Notes under the pieces: generated by a model | What the model was told of the DNA's origin: nothing | Database searches by the model: none | What the model saw: the letters and a program-made list of their open reading frames with translations, nothing else | In this document: one piece after another, positions 52,174-63,483 of the stretch | How the letters are laid out: each line of letters starts with the position of its first letter | Position numbering within the stretch: position 1 is the first letter of the stretch | DNA from: Candidatus Marinamargulisbacteria bacterium | GTDB taxonomy: Bacteria; Margulisbacteria; Marinamargulisbacteria; UBA817 | Direction of reading: 5' to 3' | Assembly: GCA_023262965.1 (NCBI GenBank) | Contig: JALQXX010000001.1 | Coordinates: 22,581 to 86,580 of the forward strand | DNA length: 64,000 nucleotides | Made by a program: the position numbers and the translations under genes

Positions 52174-54126
52174 TTAGGCTATATAGCGATTCTGTTTACT
52201 TTCAATGGTATTTAATAAGGACTGAAGAATGGTTTGATATAGCCGATCCCCATAAACCGCATCCTCCACCGTGTCATCGATGTTGGGATTATCATTGACT
52301 TCAATAATATATACGTCGTTATTCACCTCTTTTAAGTCAATACCATACAGTCCACGACCAATGGCTAAGGATGCCTGCACCGCTTTTTTGATGACCCGTG
52401 GAGGCACCGATTGAATGGGCAGCGTTTCCCAGTTTCCCGAAGATGCGTGATCGTTTTCCCAGTGATAAATTTGCCAGTGACCTGACGCCATGTAATACTT
52501 GCAGGCAAATAGGGGTTGATTATTAATTATCCCAATTCGCCAATCATAAGGTGTTGGCAAAAATTCCTGCGCAATAACCAAATCACTTTTTTTGAACATG
52601 TCTTTTAAAATACGGTAATAGTCGTCGCTGGTGTTCGCCAAATACACCCCTTTCGAAAACGATGATTCGGGTAATTTTAAAACAATCGGGAAGGTGGAAA
52701 TGTTCAGCGTCGTGTGATCATACAATTTAGGGGATACAATCCAGGATTTGGGTAGGGATAGCCCGCGATTGGTGAGACGTTCATGCAGATAAATTTTATT
52801 GGAGCACATCAAGATGGACCACGGATCATCAATCACGACCAAGCCTTCGGTATACGCTTGACGGGAGATGTCATAGGTGTGATGGTTAAGGGCCGTTGTT
52901 TCACGAATAAACAGTGCATCAAACTCACAAATCCGCTTGCGATCTCTTTTGGTAATAAATTCAACATATAATCCCATTTTTTGACCAATATCTTTGAATT
53001 TTTGCAGCGCTACTTCACAAGACGGTGGTGTGGGGTCATCGGGATTGACCAGTATCGCGACATCGTATTTGTAATTTTTTAATTTGATTCGGTTGTATCG
53101 TTTTTTGGCAATGTATTTTTTAAGGCCGCTTTTGAATATATCGGGGTAGTTATTAAGAACGTAATTCAAACTGATATGTTTTAATTTGTAAATTGTCCAG
53201 TGCGTCTTTTTTTTGAATTCAATACGAATAAAGGGCCATTCAAATAATCGAAATAGTTGCTTGGTTATTTTATTGAATTTTTTTTCGGTAGCTAAACCAA
53301 AAATCATCGTGATTTGGATATGCGAGCGGCTGTCTTTATCTAAAATGGTTTGAAACACAGGATCGATTTCATACAGAAGGGAATCGTGGACCCCCATGTT
53401 GGTATAATCGTTAATGGTTACAATAGAGGGCATAACGCGATGGCCGCGTGCGGATGCCAATAAGGATACGTAATACCCGACGCTGTGAATAGTATAGGTT
53501 CGACTTAAATTGATAACGTGATAAAAGTTTGAGTGAATAAACACCTTGTTGGTAAAGTAGTCCTGACTGGAAAATAATTGTAACGAGGTGAGTCGGGATA
53601 ATTGTTTTTGATGGGTATCGGCAATAATAATCATACGGCCTTCCGGATTGGCGCGATGATTAATCCACTCCATTCGAACCGCGTGATAACCCGATTCATA
53701 ATAATTGGGCAACGATTCTACTGATGTAAATCCATAGGATGTGTACCAACGCAATAGACGGGCATTGGCAGCATCGGCTTCAAGCCGAATCCGTTCGTAA
53801 TTCATATCGACGGCGTAAGTCATTACATGGCTGAGTAATGCATGACCTACCCCGTGATGTTGATGGTCTGGCAATACCCCAATGGAATATAACCGAATGG
53901 TTTTTTTGTATATAAAAAATATGGCGCTGCCACATAGTACGTTGGTATCGTTTTCCTGAATGTAGGCCACCAGTACGTGCTGATAGTGGCTGGATACACT
54001 ATTGGAAATACTGGCCATGGAACTTTGTAGGTACTCTTGAAAAGCGGTTTTCTCTAATTCACACAGAAACGAATAATCGTCGCTGGTGGCGTTTCGAATA
54101 TAAATGGTTGGCTTTGATTTTATCAT
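52174..54126 (-). CDS. bifunctional GNAT N-acetyltransferase plus RimK-like ATP-grasp ligase (Ngg-like architecture)
   Basis: N-terminal GNAT (VLPDHQHHGVGHALL); C-terminal ATP-grasp (FPIVLKLPESSFSKGVYL, IAQEFLP, YGIDLKEV...VYIIEVNDNP); 650 aa; ATGA-overlaps the cobA/hemD stop. Confidence 0.65.
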   Translation of the reverse strand: MIKSKPTIYIRNATSDDYSFLCELEKTAFQEYLQSSMASISNSVSSHYQHVLVAYIQENDTNVLCGSAIFFIYKKTIRLYSIGVLPDHQHHGVGHALLSHVMTYAVDMNYERIRLEADAANARLLRWYTSYGFTSVESLPNYYESGYHAVRMEWINHRANPEGRMIIIADTHQKQLSRLTSLQLFSSQDYFTNKVFIHSNFYHVINLSRTYTIHSVGYYVSLLASARGHRVMPSIVTINDYTNMGVHDSLLYEIDPVFQTILDKDSRSHIQITMIFGLATEKKFNKITKQLFRLFEWPFIRIEFKKKTHWTIYKLKHISLNYVLNNYPDIFKSGLKKYIAKKRYNRIKLKNYKYDVAILVNPDDPTPPSCEVALQKFKDIGQKMGLYVEFITKRDRKRICEFDALFIRETTALNHHTYDISRQAYTEGLVVIDDPWSILMCSNKIYLHERLTNRGLSLPKSWIVSPKLYDHTTLNISTFPIVLKLPESSFSKGVYLANTSDDYYRILKDMFKKSDLVIAQEFLPTPYDWRIGIINNQPLFACKYYMASGHWQIYHWENDHASSGNWETLPIQSVPPRVIKKAVQASLAIGRGLYGIDLKEVNNDVYIIEVNDNPNIDDTVEDAVYGDRLYQTILQSLLNTIESKQNRYIA

Positions 54127-55562
54127 AAATTCTCCAAAATTTTCTCAATAATAGATTCAATGCTAGGGTAGGTTGATTCGTGAATGTCTTGAGCCCCATA
54201 CCCACACAATGCGCGGGTTGTTTGAGGACCGATACTCATAATCGTATGGGCAGAAAATGCGGGGTATACGGCGTGTAAGCGATGGACTGAGGCGGCATTC
54301 ATTACAATAAACGTGTCCGCAGGATGAATCCATTCAAGGGCCATCGGAGGGATGCTGGGGACTGTGTTGGTGTATACGGTTACATAGGTGACACGATCGG
54401 AGTGGGTGGTTTCCAACACGCGGTCCGATTCGCTGGAGCTGGGGACAAGCACGCGATCATGAGGGGAGATGGTATCTAAAAAGGCGGTGAAGCCTTCAGC
54501 GGAGGGATGGGTTGCAATATGATCGGGGGTAATGCCGTAATCCTGCAGCGCGTTTTGGGTTTGGGTGCCAACCACGCCAATACGGGTGTGAGCCCATTGC
54601 CGAATATCCCCGTGGGTGTGCCGAATGGATTCAAAAAAGCCGCAAACCCCGTTTTGACTGGTGAATAGCAGATGGGAAAATGCCGATGGGGTGATGCTGG
54701 TTAATGCATCGGGGTGTGTGGTGATGGTATTTAAGGGAAGTTGCAGGGTTTCGGCCCCCAATGTGTGAAGGGCGTTGGCCAACTTGGATTGTTGATGGGC
54801 TGCCCGGGTCACCACAAATCGACGGTTGTGCAAGGGTAGTCGATGGCGCCAATCCATGCGATGACGGATGGTATCGCCCACAACCACCAGAGCAGGGGGT
54901 TGTACCTTATGCGTTCCTTGAATGGCTTGAATCGTTTGAAGGGTACCCGTTACCACGCGTTGATTGGCGGTTGTTCCCGATTCAATAATCGCAATCGGGG
55001 TGTCTTTTCCGCGTAATGGGGTTAATGTGTCCACAATATAATCCAATTGATATAATCCCATCATAATGACCAGTGTATCCGCAGATGGCCATTCCGGAGC
55101 CGGTGTATCATGAGCACGAGTAGCCGTCACAAAGGCCAGTGAATGCGCGGTATCCCGATGGGTGACGGGAATGCCTGCGTAGGTAGGGGCCGCAATTGCG
55201 GAACTGATGCCCGGTATGATTTCAAATGGAACCTGGTGGGCGGTGAGCCAATCAATCTCTTCGGCGCATCGACCGAATATCATGGGGTCCCCGCCTTTTA
55301 AACGGACCACGCATTTGCCGGCCCGGGCATCGGCAACCAACCGCTGGTTGATGGCGGTTTGTGTTACCGAATGCCGCCCCTTTTTCTTGCCAACACATAT
55401 TTTTTCAGCATGATCATTGGCCATAATCAGATTGGGGTGCACCAAATAATCGTATAAAATAACATCGGCCAATTGAATGATACGGTGGGCCTTTTGGGTA
55501 ATGAGCTCCGGATCACCCGGGCCTGCACCCACCAAGTAGACAGCGGTTGGGGCAATGGTCAT
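54123..55562 (-). CDS. fused uroporphyrinogen-III C-methyltransferase / uroporphyrinogen-III synthase (CobA-HemD)
   Basis: N-terminal SUMT (VYLVGAGPGDPELIT, GGDPMIFG); C-terminal HemD-like half. Confidence 0.8.
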   Translation of the reverse strand: MTIAPTAVYLVGAGPGDPELITQKAHRIIQLADVILYDYLVHPNLIMANDHAEKICVGKKKGRHSVTQTAINQRLVADARAGKCVVRLKGGDPMIFGRCAEEIDWLTAHQVPFEIIPGISSAIAAPTYAGIPVTHRDTAHSLAFVTATRAHDTPAPEWPSADTLVIMMGLYQLDYIVDTLTPLRGKDTPIAIIESGTTANQRVVTGTLQTIQAIQGTHKVQPPALVVVGDTIRHRMDWRHRLPLHNRRFVVTRAAHQQSKLANALHTLGAETLQLPLNTITTHPDALTSITPSAFSHLLFTSQNGVCGFFESIRHTHGDIRQWAHTRIGVVGTQTQNALQDYGITPDHIATHPSAEGFTAFLDTISPHDRVLVPSSSESDRVLETTHSDRVTYVTVYTNTVPSIPPMALEWIHPADTFIVMNAASVHRLHAVYPAFSAHTIMSIGPQTTRALCGYGAQDIHESTYPSIESIIEKILENL

Positions 55563-56407
55563 AGTGTTAATAATCCATGAATCACCTGCTCAGGCGAATC
55601 ATACGTCATGTAGTGACCATGATTCATGTGCTCTACAAACACCCGCCATTCACGCCTTGGCGTGTAGTAAACGCCTAATGGGCAATGGCAATTGAATGCA
55701 ATACCTTCGAGGATGCGGTAATAGTCTGCCCCACGTTTTTGGGTGTCGTTATCCCCAATCGCAGCTAAACAATCCCCAATACGGGTATCATTTGCACGAT
55801 GCTGGAGTGCAATTATCCCTTGACCGGGTGCTGGAACAAAATCCATGGGATCCAACTCATGGGTGATTTGGTGATCCAGCCCCAAGCGTTGCAGTCCGGC
55901 TGTGGATAAAATAAGCCCGTCGTACCCCCGTTCTTTGGTAAGCGTAATACGGGTGTCACTATTACCACGAATGGGTTCGCAGGTAACCAAGGGGTACAGC
56001 ATTCGACATAAGGCTTGCCGACGCATACTGCCCGTTGCCAAGCGGGTAGGCTCCGTTTTTAAACAGCGATTGGTGACCATAATCACGGCATCGGTGGCAC
56101 GTTCCTGGGTGACATACCGCCCATACACCAAATCCGATGACGGCCGCGCGGTAATGTCTTTAAACGAATGGACCCCAATATCAATCTGATGGGCGCTTAG
56201 GGCGACTTCAATTTCCTTAACAAATACATTTTTGCCACCAATTTCGGATAAAGGGTTGGGATTGCGGTCCCCGGATGTTTGAATGATATGGATTGTAACA
56301 AGGCTATGGGGATAGGCCTTCTGAAGCATTTTTTGAATATATCCCGCTTGCTTTTGGGCCAACGCTGATCCGCGTGTCCCTAAGCGTATTGGGATAGGGG
56401 CTGACAT
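55559..56407 (-). CDS. hemC: hydroxymethylbilane synthase (porphobilinogen deaminase)
   Basis: IRLGTRGSALAQKQA; start at the internal Met. Confidence 0.85.
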   Translation of the reverse strand: MSAPIPIRLGTRGSALAQKQAGYIQKMLQKAYPHSLVTIHIIQTSGDRNPNPLSEIGGKNVFVKEIEVALSAHQIDIGVHSFKDITARPSSDLVYGRYVTQERATDAVIMVTNRCLKTEPTRLATGSMRRQALCRMLYPLVTCEPIRGNSDTRITLTKERGYDGLILSTAGLQRLGLDHQITHELDPMDFVPAPGQGIIALQHRANDTRIGDCLAAIGDNDTQKRGADYYRILEGIAFNCHCPLGVYYTPRREWRVFVEHMNHGHYMTYDSPEQVIHGLLTL

Positions 56408-57426
56408 AATTTTTTTTCGGACCGATAGTGATCCCAACGGTGTAATTCGGATATGGCGTTGTCAATAAAGCGCATAACCGGTTCGATATCGTTTTTTCGG
56501 GTTTGAATGGTTTGATTGGATATGGCTTCTAATTCCGCTACCCCCACAAGTGTTACGGATGCCAACGTTCCGCAATCCGGGGATACATTTCGTGGAATCC
56601 CCAAATCAATGATGGTTAGGGCATGGTCAATGTGCCCAATGTCACAGCAACGAATAAAGGGCTCTTTTGATGAAATGGCAATGTAGAGCGTTCGAAATTG
56701 ATGGAATTGGTGTCGCACGGTTGCAAATGGGATCACCTGAATATGGGGTATTGTCTCCGCCAAGGTGTCCACACGACTCATGGTTCGATTGGCAATGGTC
56801 AGCTGACTATGCCCCATAGCGCTTAATTTAACCAAGGCCCGTTGAATCATCATCCCCGATCCAATCAATAACATGGGCTCGTTTAAAAAGTTGGGATTGT
56901 GTTGCTTAATCGCTTCGATCCCAATCGAACTAATGGAATGTGCCCCAGCAGAGATTTGCGTCTTGGTACGGGCTTCTTTTCCAGTAGCAATAATGGACTG
57001 AAATACTTTGTTTAAATGCGCGCGTGTGGCCCCAAATTCCATGCAAAATGCATGGCCTTGCTTAATTTGTGTTAAAATCTCACTTTCTCCGATCACCATG
57101 GATTTGAGGCCGCAGGCCAGCTCATGCAGATGGCGTAAGGCACTGTTGTGATGGTAAAGCGTCGTAATGGTCGACAAAATGGACGTCGCAATGCCCGTTA
57201 AGGCATGAATTTTTTGATGAAGAATGCTAACGGCTTTTTGAGGATGGGGTGATGTAAAGACCCATTCCGTACGATTGCAGGTGGATATAATAACCATTTC
57301 GTCAAAAAATAATGTGCCCAGTAATGTGGATAAATAGTGTGTCATATCATCTTTATTGCACGATACTTTTTCAAGTAGAGCAATAGGTGCGGTTTTAAAA
57401 TCAATGCTTAAAACAACAATCATCAT
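56380..57426 (-). CDS. hemA: glutamyl-tRNA reductase (short, 348 aa)
   Basis: STCNRTEWVF active-site Cys; NADP-binding GSGMM. Confidence 0.85.
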   Translation of the reverse strand: MMIVVLSIDFKTAPIALLEKVSCNKDDMTHYLSTLLGTLFFDEMVIISTCNRTEWVFTSPHPQKAVSILHQKIHALTGIATSILSTITTLYHHNSALRHLHELACGLKSMVIGESEILTQIKQGHAFCMEFGATRAHLNKVFQSIIATGKEARTKTQISAGAHSISSIGIEAIKQHNPNFLNEPMLLIGSGMMIQRALVKLSAMGHSQLTIANRTMSRVDTLAETIPHIQVIPFATVRHQFHQFRTLYIAISSKEPFIRCCDIGHIDHALTIIDLGIPRNVSPDCGTLASVTLVGVAELEAISNQTIQTRKNDIEPVMRFIDNAISELHRWDHYRSEKKLCQPLSQYA

Positions 57427-57522: not shown

Positions 57523-58437
57523 TTAGGTGGCGGACTGTATAGATGATACTTCTAAAATCAGTCGGTCCCCGGGACTGACACGCTGTTTGAACGCAATTTT
57601 TCTGGCAGCTATTGTGGTTACAATGCCTTGTGGCGATATGGATAAGACCATGCCTTTCATATCGCAGATTGGAATAAAGGTATCGGATACAATGCGCGCA
57701 TCCATTTGCCACACGCCCGCGGATAGTTCAGAACGATGGTGTAAATCGGTGACGGTGTCTTCCAACATTTGCCACTGAGATACCCCCATCATCACGGGAT
57801 TTCCGGGAAAATGGCCCCGGGTTAAGGGGTGTTGAAGGGAGTACGTTAGCCCGTACAACGCATAGCCCGATTGGTGGGTGTAGCGGGTATCAATAAAGGT
57901 CATGTGCGGATTTTTATACGCAAACGGTGCAATCGCTACCGGATGGGCAAGCGCGTCGGGGTGCATGGGCGGCACCGGATCGGGACGGTTGGGTTCGGAG
58001 GGGGCTTCTTGGGTATAAAAAGCCGTTAAATCCCCACGCGCCTGTGTGTCTCCGCAGGATAAGGTGAATGCGTGTTTGTAAAATCCGTTCCTGTGACTGC
58101 GTTTTTGGGTGGCTCCTTGAATGGGGGTGTCGGCCGTGCAGGGCCCGCCGGTTAATGTGAAATTACTGATGCCAGCAAAATAGGCAAAATAGCCCGGTTT
58201 GATGGCCCCGGAACTACTAATGCAGGCTAAGGCCGCGATTTCGGTGGTTAAAGGCGTGGGGAGTTGGGGGGGGCTATGATTGTCCCAAAATAGGGTTCGT
58301 CCCAAGGTATCGTTGGGCGATATGTGTAGCGAAAAATCACTCGAATCGGGGGATGTAATTGTAACCGTGTCCAATAACATGTTTTGGTAACGATGGGGAA
58401 TGCGGTCACAAATAGCGGTATAATCCAATACGGTCAT
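57523..58437 (-). CDS. tandem hotdog-fold protein, FabZ-like (degenerate N-terminal copy, catalytic-His-containing C-terminal copy)
   Basis: N-half: IPHRYQNMLLDTV and YFAYFAGI (FabZ LPHRFPFLLVDRV / YYFAGI) but no HFPG. C-half: RGHFPGNPVMMGV and AFKQRVSPGDRLILEV. ATGA overlap with the upstream sigma factor. Confidence 0.6.
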   Translation of the reverse strand: MTVLDYTAICDRIPHRYQNMLLDTVTITSPDSSDFSLHISPNDTLGRTLFWDNHSPPQLPTPLTTEIAALACISSSGAIKPGYFAYFAGISNFTLTGGPCTADTPIQGATQKRSHRNGFYKHAFTLSCGDTQARGDLTAFYTQEAPSEPNRPDPVPPMHPDALAHPVAIAPFAYKNPHMTFIDTRYTHQSGYALYGLTYSLQHPLTRGHFPGNPVMMGVSQWQMLEDTVTDLHHRSELSAGVWQMDARIVSDTFIPICDMKGMVLSISPQGIVTTIAARKIAFKQRVSPGDRLILEVSSIQSAT

Positions 58438-59189
58438 GTAGACATGGTAATTTTTTGACGCAGTTTTTTCAAGGCATCATTTAATAATCGGGATACGTGC
58501 ATTTGGGATATGGCTAGCCGATTGGCAATTTCTTTTTGGGTCAGCCCTTCGTAAAAACGCAACTGAATTAATTTTTTTTCGCGTTCGGATAACACGGTCA
58601 ACGCATTATTAATCATCTCGCGCGTCAGCATATCATCATTTTTGTCGCCAGTGCCTAAATTATCCATCAGAGAAAATGTGTCGTTACTGGATTTGCTGGT
58701 TTGTATGGGTTTGTCTAAGGACACTACACGAAACGATTGCCCCGCCTCCATAGACTCCAAAACCGCCTCTTCGGTGAGGTCCAATCCCTTTGCAATTTCC
58801 GGAACGGTGGGCGCACGATCCCACTCTGCGGTTTTTTCTTTAATATAGTGACGTATTTTGGAATACTGCTCTTGTAATTTTCGAGGCAATTTAACAATTA
58901 AGGCTTTATCGCGAATGTAATGACGAATATCACCGATGATGGTGGAACTGGCATAGGTTGAAAAGGCAATATTGCGGGATATGTCGTAGGTTTCCAAGGC
59001 TTTTAGAAGACCCATGTTGCCGGTTTGAATCAAGTCGGGCACATCATCGGTATTGAAGGCTAATTTGCGAGCAATGAAGGTGACTAAGTTCTGATACGCA
59101 ACTAAAATAGACTCTTTGAGTGACTCATTTTTTGTTTCGAGATACTGGCGAACCAGGGCTTCACGTTCATGGGTATTGGCTTGCGTCAT
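58434..59189 (-). CDS. sigma-70-family group-3 alternative sigma factor (SigB/SigF/FliA-like)
   Basis: Region 2 (YASSTIIGDIRHYIRD), region 4 HTH (LTQKEIANRLAISQMHVSRL); 251 aa. Confidence 0.85.
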   Translation of the reverse strand: MTQANTHEREALVRQYLETKNESLKESILVAYQNLVTFIARKLAFNTDDVPDLIQTGNMGLLKALETYDISRNIAFSTYASSTIIGDIRHYIRDKALIVKLPRKLQEQYSKIRHYIKEKTAEWDRAPTVPEIAKGLDLTEEAVLESMEAGQSFRVVSLDKPIQTSKSSNDTFSLMDNLGTGDKNDDMLTREMINNALTVLSEREKKLIQLRFYEGLTQKEIANRLAISQMHVSRLLNDALKKLRQKITMST

Positions 59190-59261: not shown

Positions 59262-61454
59262 ATGGTGCTGAATCAATCCAAATCGTATGCGTATGATTCC
59301 CGAAAAATTCAACCGGGGGATGGTTTTATATGCTTGCCCAAAGGGGATGCGTATATTAACGATGCTTTGGCACGTGGTGCAACGGAGGTGGTTCGATTGG
59401 ATCGCTTGGGTTTTGCTCAGGAAAGCCATCGGTACTATGGAGACCCCACCAAACAGGTGTGCTTGATTGGGGTTACGGGTACCAATGGGAAGACATCGGT
59501 GGCGCATTTTACGGCGCAATTGTTGCGGCAATCGGGGTATTCGGTATTGGTTATTGGAACCATGACGTCGGCCTTAACCACGCCAGAATCGTGGGATATT
59601 GCAAAGCAGATTCGACACCATGTGGATAATGGGGGTACGCATGTGGTAATGGAAGTATCATCGCATGGTATTGATCAAGGGCGTGTGTTGGAATGCGCGT
59701 TTGATGTCAAATGCTTGACCAATATTACCCATGATCATCTGGATTATCATAAGACCTTTGATGCTTATAAAGCCACTAAGATGCACTTTATGATCGATTA
59801 CCCGGGCGTCGCAATTTATGCGGATGAGGTGCCGTTATTGGCGGAGAATTTGCCACAACTTATGGGGGCTTTTCATAAAAAAAATGTGGCAACGGCCATG
59901 GCTATATGTCGTATTTTGGGAATCAATGCCACGACCTTGAAGGCCGTTTTGCCCAAACTCACCGCGCCTGCGGGACGGTTTCAACCGGTGATTTTGGGGC
60001 AGCCCTTTCATATTATTGTGGATTTTGCCCATACCCCGGATGCGTTGGCGGTTGTGCTAACCGATGCGTTGGCATTGGTGAATGGGCATCGGGAGCGGGT
60101 TCGGGTTGTATTTGGATGTGGGGGGGATCGGGATACCCGTAAACGGTCAGAAATGGGGCGAATTGCGGGTGAATATGCCGATCATGTGTACCTAACATCG
60201 GACAATCCGCGATCGGAATCGCCGGAGGCCATTATTGCGGCGATTCAAACGGGGGTGTCGAGGCCCGGTGTCCAAGCCATTACAGATCGTCATTCGGCTA
60301 TCGCGCGGGTGATTGCGGATGCGAACCCACGTGATATTGTGGTGATTGCGGGTAAAGGGCATGAAGCCTATCAAGTCATGCGCTGGTATCGCTATCAGAG
60401 TGATGATGTGGCCATAGCCACGTATGAAGTGATTCGCCAAAATCGGTATCATACATCGGTTACCTGGGTGATGGATGATTTGAAAACGCCTGCGGATGTG
60501 GTGTTTATAACAAAAAATAAGTCGCAAGCATTGCCCTACGCACCGATTCCCTATTGTCAGGTGAAGCCAACACCGTCGCAGGGCCGTGTCCGGGATTATT
60601 TGGCCAAAATCAAAGGTCCTAAACTGTGTATATTGGAATCGGCAAATCGATTTTCGATGATGGGATGGTTGCACTATGTGTTGGGGCGTTTGGGCAGTGT
60701 AACCGTTGTGGACGGCATGACCTTGCCGACAGTACCCCATCAATTGGCGCAGATGATGTTAATTGAACAAACGGTGAACCCGGTGATTATTCGATTGGAC
60801 CCCAATCACCCGGGATTCTTATCCCAGTGGGTATCGGTTATTCAGCCCGAGCATATTATTGTGGGTGACAATTATCACGCTAATGGGTATGTCGCGCCAT
60901 CGGTTGTGACGGTGTTAAAAAATAAAGTGACAATGCGTGATTATGCGTGTCCATTATGGATTCACGATCGCATGGCCGATATCAACGATGCGCTTGGCGA
61001 TTATGCGTATTTACGATGTGTTAAGGCGCCGCATTGGGTGGATTATTGTGTGAGGCTCGCCCAACAATTAATGGTTGAGTTGGATAAATACCACAGCCCG
61101 CTTTCGGATATGTTTTATGAATACAGTATGACCCGGCGGTGGCTGCAAAAAGTGCAGTGGTCGGATGGTTCTGTAACGGCATACGCCGCATTGGGTTCAT
61201 CGGATGAATGGGCGATGCACCAATATGTGGATTATATGAATCATGTATCAGCGACGGTGTATCACCATATTGCCACTTCGGAGGGGGATCGGTGGGCGCG
61301 GTATTTGCGGCAATGGTGCCGATCCACGGACCGCATTCAGGTGTATGATCCACCAACCGTGACGGCCTTCGCGAATACCGTGCAATCGCGCCCCGATGCC
61401 CTGCATGTCATATGGTGCCAGCATTTTTCGGACATGAACACATGGACTACGTAA
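59262..61454 (+). CDS. murE: MurE-like UDP-MurNAc-tripeptide ligase (~400 aa) fused to a ~330-aa C-terminal domain of unknown function
   Basis: GVTGTNGKTS P-loop, DNPR specificity motif (LTSDNPRSE), GKGHE; the 330 aa after GKGHE...QNRY have no Mur-ligase motifs. Confidence 0.7.
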   Translation: MVLNQSKSYAYDSRKIQPGDGFICLPKGDAYINDALARGATEVVRLDRLGFAQESHRYYGDPTKQVCLIGVTGTNGKTSVAHFTAQLLRQSGYSVLVIGTMTSALTTPESWDIAKQIRHHVDNGGTHVVMEVSSHGIDQGRVLECAFDVKCLTNITHDHLDYHKTFDAYKATKMHFMIDYPGVAIYADEVPLLAENLPQLMGAFHKKNVATAMAICRILGINATTLKAVLPKLTAPAGRFQPVILGQPFHIIVDFAHTPDALAVVLTDALALVNGHRERVRVVFGCGGDRDTRKRSEMGRIAGEYADHVYLTSDNPRSESPEAIIAAIQTGVSRPGVQAITDRHSAIARVIADANPRDIVVIAGKGHEAYQVMRWYRYQSDDVAIATYEVIRQNRYHTSVTWVMDDLKTPADVVFITKNKSQALPYAPIPYCQVKPTPSQGRVRDYLAKIKGPKLCILESANRFSMMGWLHYVLGRLGSVTVVDGMTLPTVPHQLAQMMLIEQTVNPVIIRLDPNHPGFLSQWVSVIQPEHIIVGDNYHANGYVAPSVVTVLKNKVTMRDYACPLWIHDRMADINDALGDYAYLRCVKAPHWVDYCVRLAQQLMVELDKYHSPLSDMFYEYSMTRRWLQKVQWSDGSVTAYAALGSSDEWAMHQYVDYMNHVSATVYHHIATSEGDRWARYLRQWCRSTDRIQVYDPPTVTAFANTVQSRPDALHVIWCQHFSDMNTWTT

Positions 61455-62347
61455 TTCCCCTGTTGTGGGTGCTGGGGATGGGAATAGCCTACCGAATGTT
61501 TATTCGATGGGCCCATCGGCGGCAAATGAATCAAGTGATTTATGAGGACGCGCCTCAGCGCCATCATCAAAAAAGCGTTACCCCGACCATGGGGGGCGTG
61601 GTTATTTTGGGGAGCTTTGTGGTGGGAATGATTGGCGTCAACGCCTGGACACCGGTGACGGTATGGGTGGTGATGACAACGCTACTATTTGGGGGCATTG
61701 GCCTTATTGATGATGGGCTATCGTTGCGACGTAAGTCCAATAAGGGGATGTCGGCCAAACAAAAATTGGGCATGCAGGTGGGGGTTGCGGTGGTGGCTAT
61801 GATTGCTTGGCACTACGCTATTGCGCCCTTGATAGGGTGGCAATGGCTGCTATATGGGTTCTTGCTGGTAGGCGCCTCGAATGCGACCAACTTAACGGAC
61901 GGCTTGGATGGGTTGTTGGGGTCGGTCATGCTGATAACCATGGGCGGGCTGTGGTGGGTGTGTCAGGCACAGGGATTGCCGGTGGAAGGGCGTATGGTGG
62001 TGGTAATGATGGTGTCACTAGCCGTTTTTTTGGTATTTAATTGGCATCCGGCCCGATTGTTTATGGGTGATACGGGGTCGTTATTGTTGGGCGGTTTTTT
62101 TGCGGCAACGGCTGTGGCAACGGGTCAGTGGCCGATTATGATTGGTTTGGGGGCGATTTATATTGTGGAGACCCTGAGTGTTATGATTCAAGTGATCGGG
62201 TTTCGTTACACCCGAAAGCGGGTATTTTTGATGAGCCCGTTGCACCACCATTTTGAATTAATGGGGCTTTCGGAGCGTGTGATTGTGCTGCTGTTTGCGG
62301 CCTTTCATGGAGTATGTACATGGATTCAGTTAAGCCGATACCTGTAG
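61442..62347 (+). CDS. mraY: phospho-N-acetylmuramoyl-pentapeptide transferase
   Basis: TPTMGGVVIL, NATNLTDGLDGL; start is 61412 or 61442. Confidence 0.9.
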   Translation: MDYVIPLLWVLGMGIAYRMFIRWAHRRQMNQVIYEDAPQRHHQKSVTPTMGGVVILGSFVVGMIGVNAWTPVTVWVVMTTLLFGGIGLIDDGLSLRRKSNKGMSAKQKLGMQVGVAVVAMIAWHYAIAPLIGWQWLLYGFLLVGASNATNLTDGLDGLLGSVMLITMGGLWWVCQAQGLPVEGRMVVVMMVSLAVFLVFNWHPARLFMGDTGSLLLGGFFAATAVATGQWPIMIGLGAIYIVETLSVMIQVIGFRYTRKRVFLMSPLHHHFELMGLSERVIVLLFAAFHGVCTWIQLSRYL

Positions 62348-63483
62348 CCGTTTTGGGAGATGGGGTGACCGGTCAAGCGGTTTCGGCCTATCTGCGTCAA
62401 TCAACGGCGTATGAACAGGTGACCGTGGATGCGGCCCAATGGGTGGTGGTGAGTCCGGGCATTCCCCCGCGAAAATGGCCCAAAACCACGGCGGAGATAC
62501 TATCGGATAATGAATTTGCGTACCGTATTTTGCATCAAAAAAACCCCAAGTTGGTGATGATTGGTGTGACTGGAACCAATGGAAAAACAACGGTGGTATC
62601 CGCATTGGCCCATGCCTTGGGTGTTCGGGCCTACGGGAATATTGGACGACCTTTGATACAGGACGTCGACACCATCGATGTGTCAAAACCCATTGTGATC
62701 GAACTGAGCAGCTATCAATTGGTTACCACAACCACCATGCGGTTTACCATTGGGGTGATTATGAACATTGAGCCGGATCATTATGATTGGCATGAATCGT
62801 ACGAAAACTATCGCGATGCCAAATGCCGGTTAAGCACGCTGTCGTCGGTGCTGTATGCCCCACAGGCGGTATGGTCGCATTGTGCGAAGGACCACTGTGA
62901 ATGGGTGAATACCGATGCCTTAACGCCGCAATGTCTGCCACCATTGACGGCTCGCCATGATCAGCATAATGCGGCATTGATTCAAGCCATTTTGCAGCGA
63001 CTGGGGCAAGCGCCTGCGTATGTTCAACAGAAAATGGCCACATTTGAACGCCCCCCCTTTCGGTACGAGACGATTTTTTGTTCGGAGGACTTATGTATTA
63101 TTAATGATTCCAAAGCCACCAATATGGCGGCAACAGAGGCGGCTTTGGCGAGTGTGGTTGGGGGGCCGGTATTGCTCATTTTATGCGGTCAAGCCAAATC
63201 CGATTATACGATGGATTTTATGAATCGTGTAACCGAGCGATGTGACTGGGTGTATGCAGCGGGGGGATTATCACGCAATCGCCATCAGTTTCCGGTAAGC
63301 AGTCAGGGGGCTATTCAATTTTTTGATACGTTATACGATGCCACATGTGCGGCACTGATGCAATGTGTCAAGGGGATCATTTTATTCTCACCCTCAGCCG
63401 CAAGTTTTGACGAGTTTACGAATTATGAGGCCCGTGGAAAGGCGTTTACAACCTATGTTGACCACATTCAGACTATGGCGTAA
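62314..63483 (+). CDS. murD: UDP-N-acetylmuramoylalanine--D-glutamate ligase (short form)
   Basis: N-terminal Rossmann-like domain, GVTGTNGKTT P-loop; position between mraY and ftsW. Confidence 0.8.
   Translation: MYMDSVKPIPVAVLGDGVTGQAVSAYLRQSTAYEQVTVDAAQWVVVSPGIPPRKWPKTTAEILSDNEFAYRILHQKNPKLVMIGVTGTNGKTTVVSALAHALGVRAYGNIGRPLIQDVDTIDVSKPIVIELSSYQLVTTTTMRFTIGVIMNIEPDHYDWHESYENYRDAKCRLSTLSSVLYAPQAVWSHCAKDHCEWVNTDALTPQCLPPLTARHDQHNAALIQAILQRLGQAPAYVQQKMATFERPPFRYETIFCSEDLCIINDSKATNMAATEAALASVVGGPVLLILCGQAKSDYTMDFMNRVTERCDWVYAAGGLSRNRHQFPVSSQGAIQFFDTLYDATCAALMQCVKGIILFSPSAASFDEFTNYEARGKAFTTYVDHIQTMA

What the first reader, a model, noticed from the sequence alone, without database searches (positions are those of the whole stretch)
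59262..61454. MurE fused to a ~330-aa unknown C-terminal domain; murF missing from the dcw cluster and no ftsI/mraZ/mraW upstream
The first ~400 aa are a compact MurE (P-loop, DNPR, GKGHE). The remaining ~330 aa are rich in His/Trp/Tyr, lack any Mur-ligase motif and run straight into mraY. The canonical murF between murE and mraY is absent. Upstream of murE there is a divergent sigma-factor gene instead of ftsL/ftsI. The extension could be a substitute D-Ala-D-Ala-adding or regulatory module, or a novel fused partner in peptidoglycan precursor synthesis.
Basis: seen in the sequence. Interest (0 to 1): 0.6.

Follow-up and report, generated by a model that had tools for sequence, protein, structure and literature searches.

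The report
MurE fused to a degenerate MurF
The "unknown" C-terminal half of this cell-wall enzyme is the missing MurF gene, fused onto MurE and so altered that it keeps the MurF fold but appears to have lost every catalytic motif, which leaves open how this group of marine bacteria completes its cell-wall precursor.

Summary
The 730-aa ORF at 59262-61454 is real. It recurs as a single ORF in more than 20 independent contigs from a marine Marinamargulisbacteria clade. Residues 1-391 are a bona fide compact MurE.

Residues 392-730 ("X") hit no Pfam, NCBIfam or PDB sequence model. Only 22 relatives exist among 1.84 billion representative proteins, and all belong to this family. X is nevertheless the missing murF:
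- In sister lineages a 375-aa canonical MurF sits in the same slot, with the same flanking genes.
- The X profile scores 32 such MurFs at a median of 17 bits (MurE/MurD ≤0.1, shuffles ≤8.1).
- hhalign gives a collinear alignment (E=7e-4).

By alignment, the canonical Mur-ligase motifs are gone. The P-loop TGSAGKTT reads xExxxRxS, the Mg2+ Glu is lost, the His motif is deleted, and DDxYNANP and KGSR are absent. X is still under strong purifying selection (dN/dS about 0.06).

Best reading: a MurF-derived pseudo-ligase kept as a structural or regulatory partner of MurE. I could not test whether another MurF exists elsewhere in these genomes. This is a new variant of the known MurE-MurF chimera, of moderate interest.

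The parts
59262..61454 (+). murE-X fusion gene (730 codons plus stop)
   Evidence: ORF list. Conserved as a single ORF in more than 20 independent contigs.
59262..60434 (+). MurE half (aa 1-391): compact but canonical UDP-MurNAc-L-Ala-D-Glu:meso-DAP ligase. P-loop G73-S79, E131, D158/H159, K173, DNPR 314-317, GKGHE 364-368.
   Evidence: Pfam and NCBIfam. Invariant columns in A1. 46% identical to sister-clade MurEs.
60435..61451 (+). Module X (aa 392-730): MurF-derived domain with the Mur-ligase fold but none of the canonical catalytic motifs.
60465..60575 (+). Vestige of the MurF N-terminal domain (aa 402-438; 'W..ADVVFITK' aligns with MurF 'PGD.FIP.KG', followed by a ~14-aa deletion). Low confidence when modelled alone.
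   Evidence: Merged alignment. pLDDT <50 for X residues 1-44.
60558..60863 (+). Stretch of X that still shows sequence-level similarity to MurF (aa 433-534, equivalent to compact MurF 39-139).
   Evidence: hmmsearch and hhalign give the same register. The reciprocal MurF-profile hit falls in the same place.
60636..60650 (+). Degenerate P-loop: E459...R463 (family pattern xExxxRxS) in place of MurF G65...K69 (TGSAGKTT).
   Evidence: hhalign register. E459 and R463 are invariant in the X family.
60576..61133 (+). Central (ex-ATPase) domain of X (aa ~439-624). The position of the MurF 'GltHie' His motif carries a 7-aa deletion just after G535-D536.
   Evidence: AF2 secondary structure. Merged alignment.
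61134..61451 (+). C-terminal Rossmann-like domain of X (aa ~625-730). DDxYNANP, GDMxELG and KGSR are not retained. Invariant K630, D648 and W718.
   Evidence: AF2 secondary structure. Merged alignment. Invariant columns.
61412..62347 (+). mraY, overlapping the end of murE-X (an alternative ATG lies at 61442).
   Evidence: Pfam. TIGR00445 212 bits > 192. DNA at the junction.
62314..63483 (+). murD
   Evidence: TIGR01087 232.6 bits > 211.95.
58434..59189 (-). Divergent sigma-70-family gene. Together with the ApeI-like/hot-dog gene at 57523..58437 (-) it is conserved upstream of murE across Margulisiibacteriota, fused or not.
   Evidence: Pfam. Synteny in L002, L003, L008 and L009.

Best explanation
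Module X (aa 392-730) is the vertically inherited murF of this lineage. In the ancestor, murE and murF were adjacent and overlapped by a few bases. Loss of the murE stop codon joined them head to tail without a linker. On the stem of one marine Marinamargulisbacteria clade, the MurF half then diverged very rapidly. It kept the central and C-terminal Mur-ligase domains as a fold and reduced the N-terminal UDP-binding domain to a vestige. It replaced or deleted the residues that every Mur ligase uses to bind ATP and Mg2+ and to activate the substrate carboxylate. Since then it has been under strong purifying selection. The most likely present role is therefore non-catalytic: a pseudo-ligase domain that stabilises, scaffolds or regulates the still-canonical MurE half, and possibly docks it to MurD, MraY or MurG. 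D-Ala-D-Ala addition would then be done by something encoded elsewhere, or not at all. Shown: descent from MurF, fold retention, motif loss by alignment (residue-level equivalences are reliable only for MurF 39-139), purifying selection, and clade-wide conservation of the fusion. Inferred: catalytic inactivity and the scaffold or regulatory role.
Against: MurF activity is normally essential for a cross-linkable pentapeptide stem. No other murF was seen in the 64-kb window or within about 10 kb of the fusion in relatives. If none exists genome-wide, an inactive X would be hard to reconcile with the intact murE, mraY, murD, ftsW and murG genes. Several invariant charged residues (E459, R463, D536, D573, D576, K630, D648) fall near former active-site positions, which could mean a ligand is still bound. 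Residue-level equivalence outside X 42-143 rests on a heuristic profile merge and on fold, not on a superposition I could inspect. dS is near saturation (pS about 0.7), so the dN/dS value is approximate.
Confidence: 0.65

Rival explanations
1. X is still the working D-Ala-D-Ala-adding enzyme: an extremely divergent MurF that binds ATP and its substrates with a rebuilt active site.
For: It sits in the murF slot of an otherwise intact operon. It is under purifying selection as strong as its neighbours. No other murF was found in any fetched sequence. Invariant charged residues cluster at former active-site positions.
Against: The GxxGK[ST] P-loop has an invariant Glu in place of the first Gly and an Arg in place of the Lys. 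The Mg2+-binding Glu and His are lost or deleted. The N-terminal UDP-binding domain is vestigial. The C-domain motifs are gone. From established knowledge of the family, no characterised Mur-ligase-superfamily member works without these. All MurE, MurD and MurF sequences from the same lineages keep them.
Confidence: 0.15
2. X has been neofunctionalised into a ligand-binding or catalytic domain with a different job. It might sense UDP-MurNAc-peptide or a nucleotide to control MurE, or carry out chemistry that does not use a P-loop.
For: A burst of divergence was followed by tight constraint. Invariant polar residues line the old cleft. Trp content gained.
Against: There is no similarity to any other family. 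No new cofactor or metal motif is evident. This reading overlaps with the regulatory version of the best explanation and cannot be separated from it by computation.
Confidence: 0.14
3. X is an unrelated, novel domain that displaced murF. The Mur-ligase-like fold is convergent or generic P-loop-like.
For: Standard domain and profile searches find nothing. X is only about 12% identical to MurF.
Confidence: 0.03
4. The long ORF is an assembly or frameshift artefact joining murE to a downstream gene.
For: Two relatives (L004 with P0016, and L090 with P0017) show murE and X as separate ORFs.
Against: Those two contigs are error-prone: neighbouring genes are also split, and L090 has coverage 0.2. 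Intact single ORFs occur in at least 20 independent assemblies made with different technologies. dN/dS shows the coding frame is maintained.
Confidence: 0.01

Closest known systems
MurE-MurF chimeras (NCBIfam NF008896/PRK11929; Bordetella pertussis structure 8F5D; Shirakawa et al. 2023, PMC10214165)
   Different: In the known chimeras both halves carry all motifs and are independently active, and they are recognised by InterPro. Here the MurF half appears to lack every catalytic motif and is invisible to Pfam and NCBIfam. NF008896 scores 347 bits against a cutoff of 1023, and only over the MurE part. The fusion arose independently, in Margulisiibacteriota rather than Proteobacteria.
Canonical compact MurF of Margulisiibacteriota (about 375 aa; e.g. 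P0139, P0245)
   Same: Same genomic slot and flanking genes. Similar length (about 340 vs 375 aa). Collinear alignment. Shared blocks: Y..K before strand 1, G.LT.L, and P.H.V/I at the end of the ATPase core.
   Different: 12% identity. P-loop, Mg2+ ligands, carbamyl-Lys and C-domain motifs are not retained. There is a 14-aa deletion in the N domain and a 7-aa deletion at the His motif.
[quoted passage not shown]
   Same: A Mur-ligase fold retained for an apparently structural role outside its original catalytic job. It appeared among the Foldseek hits to X.
   Different: PAP11 derives from MurE, not MurF. It is eukaryotic and part of a transcription complex. Its catalytic status is still undetermined. 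X remains inside the peptidoglycan operon, attached to an active-looking MurE.
MurT (Mur-ligase-like subunit of the MurT/GatD lipid II amidotransferase)
   Same: Best Foldseek hit (9sq9_B, E=5.7e-8). Also a two-domain Mur-ligase derivative without the N-terminal UDP-binding domain.
   Different: From established knowledge, MurT keeps a functional P-loop and ATP-dependent chemistry and has a DUF1727 C-terminal domain. X has neither. X scores specifically with MurF profiles and occupies the murF locus.

Membership tests
MurE (TIGR01085; UDP-MurNAc-tripeptide synthetase), applied to aa 1-391 | Score above the curated family cutoff | tested here: met
   TIGR01085 scores 340.7 bits against a cutoff of 257.3. 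Note that the stricter equivalog NF001126 scores 360.9 against 373, just below its cutoff.
MurE (TIGR01085), applied to aa 1-391 | GxxGK[ST] P-loop, Mg2+ Glu and His, carbamyl-Lys, and the DNPR meso-DAP motif | tested here: met
   G73-S79, E131, D158/H159, K173 and D314-N-P-R317 are all present. All are invariant in the family except the Pro of DNPR, which is DNSR in most relatives.
MurF (TIGR01143; Pfam Mur_ligase_M plus Mur_ligase_C), applied to X | Recognised by curated family or domain models | tested here: not met
   X alone gives no Pfam or NCBIfam hit, and none of 15 family members does either. The control, sister-clade MurF, scores 308.8 against a cutoff of 288.6.
MurF, applied to X | ATP-binding P-loop GxxGK[ST] | tested here: not met
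   TGSAGKTT aligns to xExxxRxS. E459 and R463 are invariant.
MurF, applied to X | Mg2+-binding Glu and His, carbamylated Lys, and the C-domain motifs DDxYNANP, GDMxELG and KGSR | tested here: not met
   The Glu position is variable, the His motif is deleted, the Lys is only about 50% conserved, and the C-domain motifs are absent in the merged alignment. Residue-level confidence is lower outside MurF 39-139.
MurF, applied to X | Mur-ligase fold (central ATPase-like domain plus C-terminal Rossmann-like domain, with an N-terminal UDP-binding domain) | tested here: inconclusive
MurF, applied to X | Common descent with MurF: specific sequence similarity and an orthologous genomic position | tested here: met
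   MurF-specific HMM scores with controls, hhalign E=6.9e-4, and identical synteny.
MurF, applied to X | ATP-dependent addition of D-Ala-D-Ala to UDP-MurNAc-tripeptide | not testable with these tools
   Requires an enzyme assay or complementation.
Bifunctional MurE/MurF chimera (NF008896) | Both ligase modules intact in one polypeptide, with a score above the cutoff | tested here: not met
   347.3 bits against a cutoff of 1023, matching only model positions in the MurE part. The MurF module lacks the catalytic motifs.
Pseudoenzyme (catalytically dead homolog under selection) | Homology to an enzyme family, loss of catalytic residues, and purifying selection | tested here: met
   Homology, motif loss, and dN/dS of 0.06. 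Actual loss of activity was not tested.

The most novel reading that the evidence does not exclude
This Marinamargulisbacteria clade has no canonical MurF at all. Either X performs the last cytoplasmic ligation with an active site unlike any known Mur ligase, or the cells build lipid II from a tripeptide (or otherwise non-D-Ala-D-Ala) stem. The second case would imply a non-canonical way of cross-linking peptidoglycan in free-living marine bacteria.
Probability: 0.2. Interest if true: 0.8.

Novelty: new variant of a known kind. Interest (0 to 1): 0.5.

Why it matters
MurF is regarded as an essential, universally conserved step of peptidoglycan precursor synthesis and as an antibiotic target. 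Here the vertically inherited MurF of a widespread marine clade has been welded to MurE and apparently stripped of its ATP-binding and catalytic residues, yet it is maintained by strong selection.

If a second MurF exists elsewhere in these genomes, this is a clear natural example of a Mur-ligase pseudoenzyme kept for a scaffold or regulatory role. That would support the idea that Mur ligases work as a physical complex.

If no second MurF exists, these bacteria either have a new kind of D-Ala-D-Ala-adding site or make an unusual cell wall.

There is also a practical consequence. Annotation pipelines call these proteins MurE and would score the genomes as lacking murF, which could mislead metabolic reconstructions of Margulisiibacteriota.

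Tried and rejected
- Searching X alone in the word-indexed 5.8-billion-protein database found nothing.
- phmmer and profile hmmsearch of X against PDB sequences gave only noise: GST and Alba at E>0.2.
- Pfam hits to X (WYL_3, EF-hand_15, TIR and others) each occur in only one member at E>0.01, so I rejected them as chance.
- hhalign of X against single E. coli MurF and MurE sequences found nothing. Only lineage-matched compact MurFs revealed the relationship.
- hhalign in global mode produced a degenerate alignment.
- Single-sequence AF2 of the whole protein failed with pLDDT 33.
- P0016 with L004, and P0017 with L090, looked like possible unfused or intermediate states. They turned out to be error-ridden contigs with X fragments in shifted frames. 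No true intermediate was found: no fused MurF with intact motifs, and no free-standing X.
- I tried to detect a second murF in fusion-bearing genomes in two ways. First, I checked whether any of the top 120 compact-MurF homologs lies on a contig with the same length as a fusion-bearing contig. None does, but the list stops at about 50% identity. Second, I ran a concatenated fusion-plus-MurF query on the genome collection.
A tighter subset worked.
- Exact look-ups of the window protein and of P0259 found no record.

Full report
**Observation.** The window holds an ATG-initiated ORF of 730 codons at 59262..61454 on the plus strand. Residues 1-391 are a compact MurE. Pfam Mur_ligase_M covers 71-188 and Mur_ligase_C covers 238-366. 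TIGR01085 scores 340.7 bits against a cutoff of 257.3. The P-loop (G73-S79), DNPR (314-317) and GKGHE (364-368) are all present. The remaining ~340 residues, called X here, hit no Pfam or NCBIfam model. The ORF overlaps mraY (61412..62347) and murD follows (62314..63483). Both pass their NCBIfam equivalog cutoffs. A sigma-70-family gene lies divergently upstream. A MurF-profile scan of all six frames finds no separate murF anywhere in the 64 kb. X is enriched in Trp (3.5% vs 0.5%) and slightly in Tyr, but not in His. The lack of ftsI/mraZ upstream is normal for the whole phylum.

**Not an artefact, and clade-restricted.** A search with the whole protein returned one identical protein and 14 full-length homologs of 734-758 aa at 39-45% identity. 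Where named, they are labelled Margulisbacteria or Marinamargulisbacteria. Contigs of 580 kb, 1.68 Mb and 317 kb show the same layout: ApeI-like and sigma genes divergently upstream, then murE-X, mraY, murD, ftsW, murG. Five further marine metagenome loci also carry MurE(1-393)+X as one ORF. Two apparent split versions (L004, L090) lie on contigs where neighbouring genes are also broken, or where coverage is 0.2. X appears there in shifted frames, so these are sequencing errors. A profile of X searched against 1.84 billion representative proteins found only 22 hits, all from this family or fragments of it, and no MurF. Neither X alone nor its profile matches any PDB sequence.

**What X is.** The nearest relatives without the extension gave the key lead (P0018, P0020, and the Marinamargulisbacteria SAG AAA071-K20). 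They have a ~400-aa murE followed by a 374-377-aa Mur ligase and then mraY-murD-ftsW-murG. In the SAG the same ApeI-like and sigma genes lie upstream. That 375-aa protein is a bona fide MurF (TIGR01143 308.8 bits against 288.6), and it is common across Margulisiibacteriota. X therefore occupies the murF slot.

Four further tests support descent from MurF:
- The X profile hits a sister-clade MurF at 22.6 bits (E=7e-9 for three pre-chosen targets), aligning X 53-144 to MurF 50-140. The same register recurs with MurFs from two further genomes.
- In a specificity control, 32 compact MurFs score a median of 17.4 bits (max 26.7). Twenty-one MurEs score at most -0.3, nine MurDs at most 0.1, and 320 shuffled MurFs at most 8.1.
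- hhalign of the X alignment against a 28-sequence MurF alignment gives E=6.9e-4 in the same register. The MurF profile also reciprocally picks out the X region of the fusion ORFs.

In sister clades murE and murF overlap by 4 or 17 nt, or are 22 nt apart. A stop-loss or frameshift event is therefore enough to create the linker-less fusion. The tail of MurE and the head of MurF can both still be recognised around residues 380-415.

**What has changed.** A merged profile alignment of X and compact MurF is collinear from end to end. Going through the motifs in order:
- The N-domain motif PGD.FIP.KG survives as aDVlFiskk, followed by a ~14-aa deletion.
- The P-loop TGSAGKTT is xExxxRxS, with an invariant Glu for the first Gly and an invariant Arg for the Lys.
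- NqNNEiGvPLT is sl.hnL.GLtL.
- The Mg2+-binding Glu of IvEmG is lost.
- The 'GltHie' His motif is removed by a 7-aa deletion.
- The carbamyl-Lys position is Lys in only about half the members, and Thr in the window.
- The hRl Arg is Trp.
- DDtYNaNPDG, GDMlELG and KGSRg are not retained.

Assigning roles to these residues rests on established knowledge of Mur-ligase invariants, not on a test done here. Residue-level equivalences are solid for MurF 39-139 and approximate elsewhere. By contrast, MurE, MurD and MurF from the same lineages keep all of these residues.

The divergence is one-sided. X is 12% identical to MurFs, which are 55% identical to each other. The attached MurE half is 46% identical to sister MurEs, which are 53% identical to each other.

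**Selection.** Within the fusion family the X half is less conserved than the MurE half (mean pairwise identity 33% vs 62%), but it is clearly constrained. Between two members, dN/dS is 0.062 for X (pN 0.113, pS 0.697). The comparison values are 0.051 for the MurE half, 0.052 for mraY, 0.132 for murD and 0.086 for murG. dS is near saturation, so the ratios are approximate, but pN is far below pS. The invariant residues are W402, D412, F415, P438, K449, E459, R463, P507, P529, G535, D573, K630, D648 and W718.

**Mechanism.**
- Shown: X descends from MurF, keeps the central and C-terminal Mur-ligase domains as a fold, lacks the family's nucleotide, metal and substrate motifs by alignment, and is maintained by selection as part of MurE.
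- Inferred: X no longer catalyses ATP-dependent ligation and acts as a structural, scaffolding or regulatory partner of MurE.

This fits what is known about MurE-MurF chimeras. Their two halves stabilise each other through a hydrophobic patch, and the chimera binds other Mur ligases through its central domains (PMC10214165). It also fits the precedent of plant PAP11, a MurE homolog retained as a structural subunit of the plastid RNA polymerase (PMC11561172; 9epc_Q was among the Foldseek hits). I put about 0.93 on descent from MurF and about 0.65 on the full pseudo-ligase reading.

**Rivals.** The main rival (0.15) is that X is still the D-Ala-D-Ala-adding enzyme with a rebuilt active site. In its favour are the operon position, the strong constraint, the conserved charged residues at old active-site positions, and the lack of any other murF in the sequence I could reach. 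Against it is the loss of every feature on which Mur-ligase chemistry is known to depend. A neofunctionalised ligand-binding or catalytic role (0.14) cannot be separated from the regulatory version of the best explanation by computation. An unrelated domain (0.03) and an artefact (0.01) are effectively excluded.

**Open question.** I could not determine whether fusion-bearing genomes encode another murF, or ddl. None of the top 120 compact-MurF homologs lies on a contig of the same length as a fusion-bearing contig, but that list stops near 50% identity. The single genome-collection scan was swamped by Bacteroidota MurE matches and returned only three relevant loci, all unfused. This question decides how surprising the finding is.

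**Novelty.** MurE-MurF chimeras are known and common, mostly in Proteobacteria, with both halves active and recognisable by InterPro. A chimera whose MurF half has lost all motifs, escapes all family models and yet is conserved appears nowhere in the searched literature. No paper pairs 'Mur ligase' with 'pseudoenzyme', and the Marinamargulisbacteria papers I read do not discuss the cell wall. Databases label these proteins MurE or hypothetical. I rate this a new variant of a known kind, with interest 0.5. That would rise to about 0.8 if no other MurF exists in these genomes.

Noticed in passing
window 52174..54126 (-): A 650-aa ORF fusing an N-terminal GNAT/RimI-like acetyltransferase to a C-terminal RimK-family ATP-grasp ligase, with an unassigned middle region of about 230 aa. 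It gives a very weak hit to D-Ala-D-Ala ligase (TIGR01205, 19 bits), as expected for any ATP-grasp protein. It is not found next to murE-X in relatives (L002, L009), so there is no evidence of a link to the missing MurF activity.
   Followed up: partly
L002 16343-17287; L003 16343-17287; L009 16345-17289; L004 7585-8484: In the fusion clade a GFO/IDH/MocA-family oxidoreductase gene follows murG directly. In unfused sister lineages that position holds other genes (ThiD2/TMP-TENI, or a large gene on the opposite strand). It may be a clade-specific addition to the cell-wall operon.
   Followed up: no
window 60201..60212 (aa 314-317), and alignment A1: The meso-DAP recognition motif of MurE is DNPR in the window protein and in sister-clade MurEs, but DNSR in nearly all other members of the fusion clade.
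   Followed up: no
window 59262..63483; L005, L007, L008: All the cytoplasmic cell-wall enzymes of this phylum are unusually short: MurE about 400 aa (no Pfam PF01225 N-domain hit), MurF about 375 aa, MurD about 385-390 aa, MraY about 290-310 aa. E. coli has 495, 452, 438 and 360 aa respectively.
   Followed up: partly
window 57523..59189 (-); L002, L003, L008, L009: An ApeI-like/hot-dog-fold gene overlaps the 3' end of a sigma-70-family gene. The pair is conserved divergently upstream of murE across Marinamargulisbacteria, whether murE and murF are fused or not. This suggests a shared promoter region with the cell-wall operon.
   Followed up: partly
window 54123..57426 (-): A heme/siroheme biosynthesis block: hemA (GlutR), hemC, and a cobA-hemD fusion (TP_methylase plus HEM4, 479 aa). 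The hemA ORF as listed overlaps the hemC ORF by 58 nt.
   Followed up: no
L004 (whole locus); L090 (whole locus): These ENA long-read or low-coverage contigs carry many frameshifts: sigma, ftsW, murG and murE-X are all split. Gene calls from them create spurious 'short MurE' proteins (P0016, P0017) in public protein collections.
   Followed up: yes
L007 (GCA_042576685.1, contig JBHPEX010000056.1): This bacterial dcw-type locus (murE, murF, mraY, murD, ftsW, murG, ruvA, ruvC), typical of Margulisiibacteriota, is labelled 'Thermoproteota archaeon' in NCBI. The bin is probably mislabelled or contaminated.
   Followed up: no
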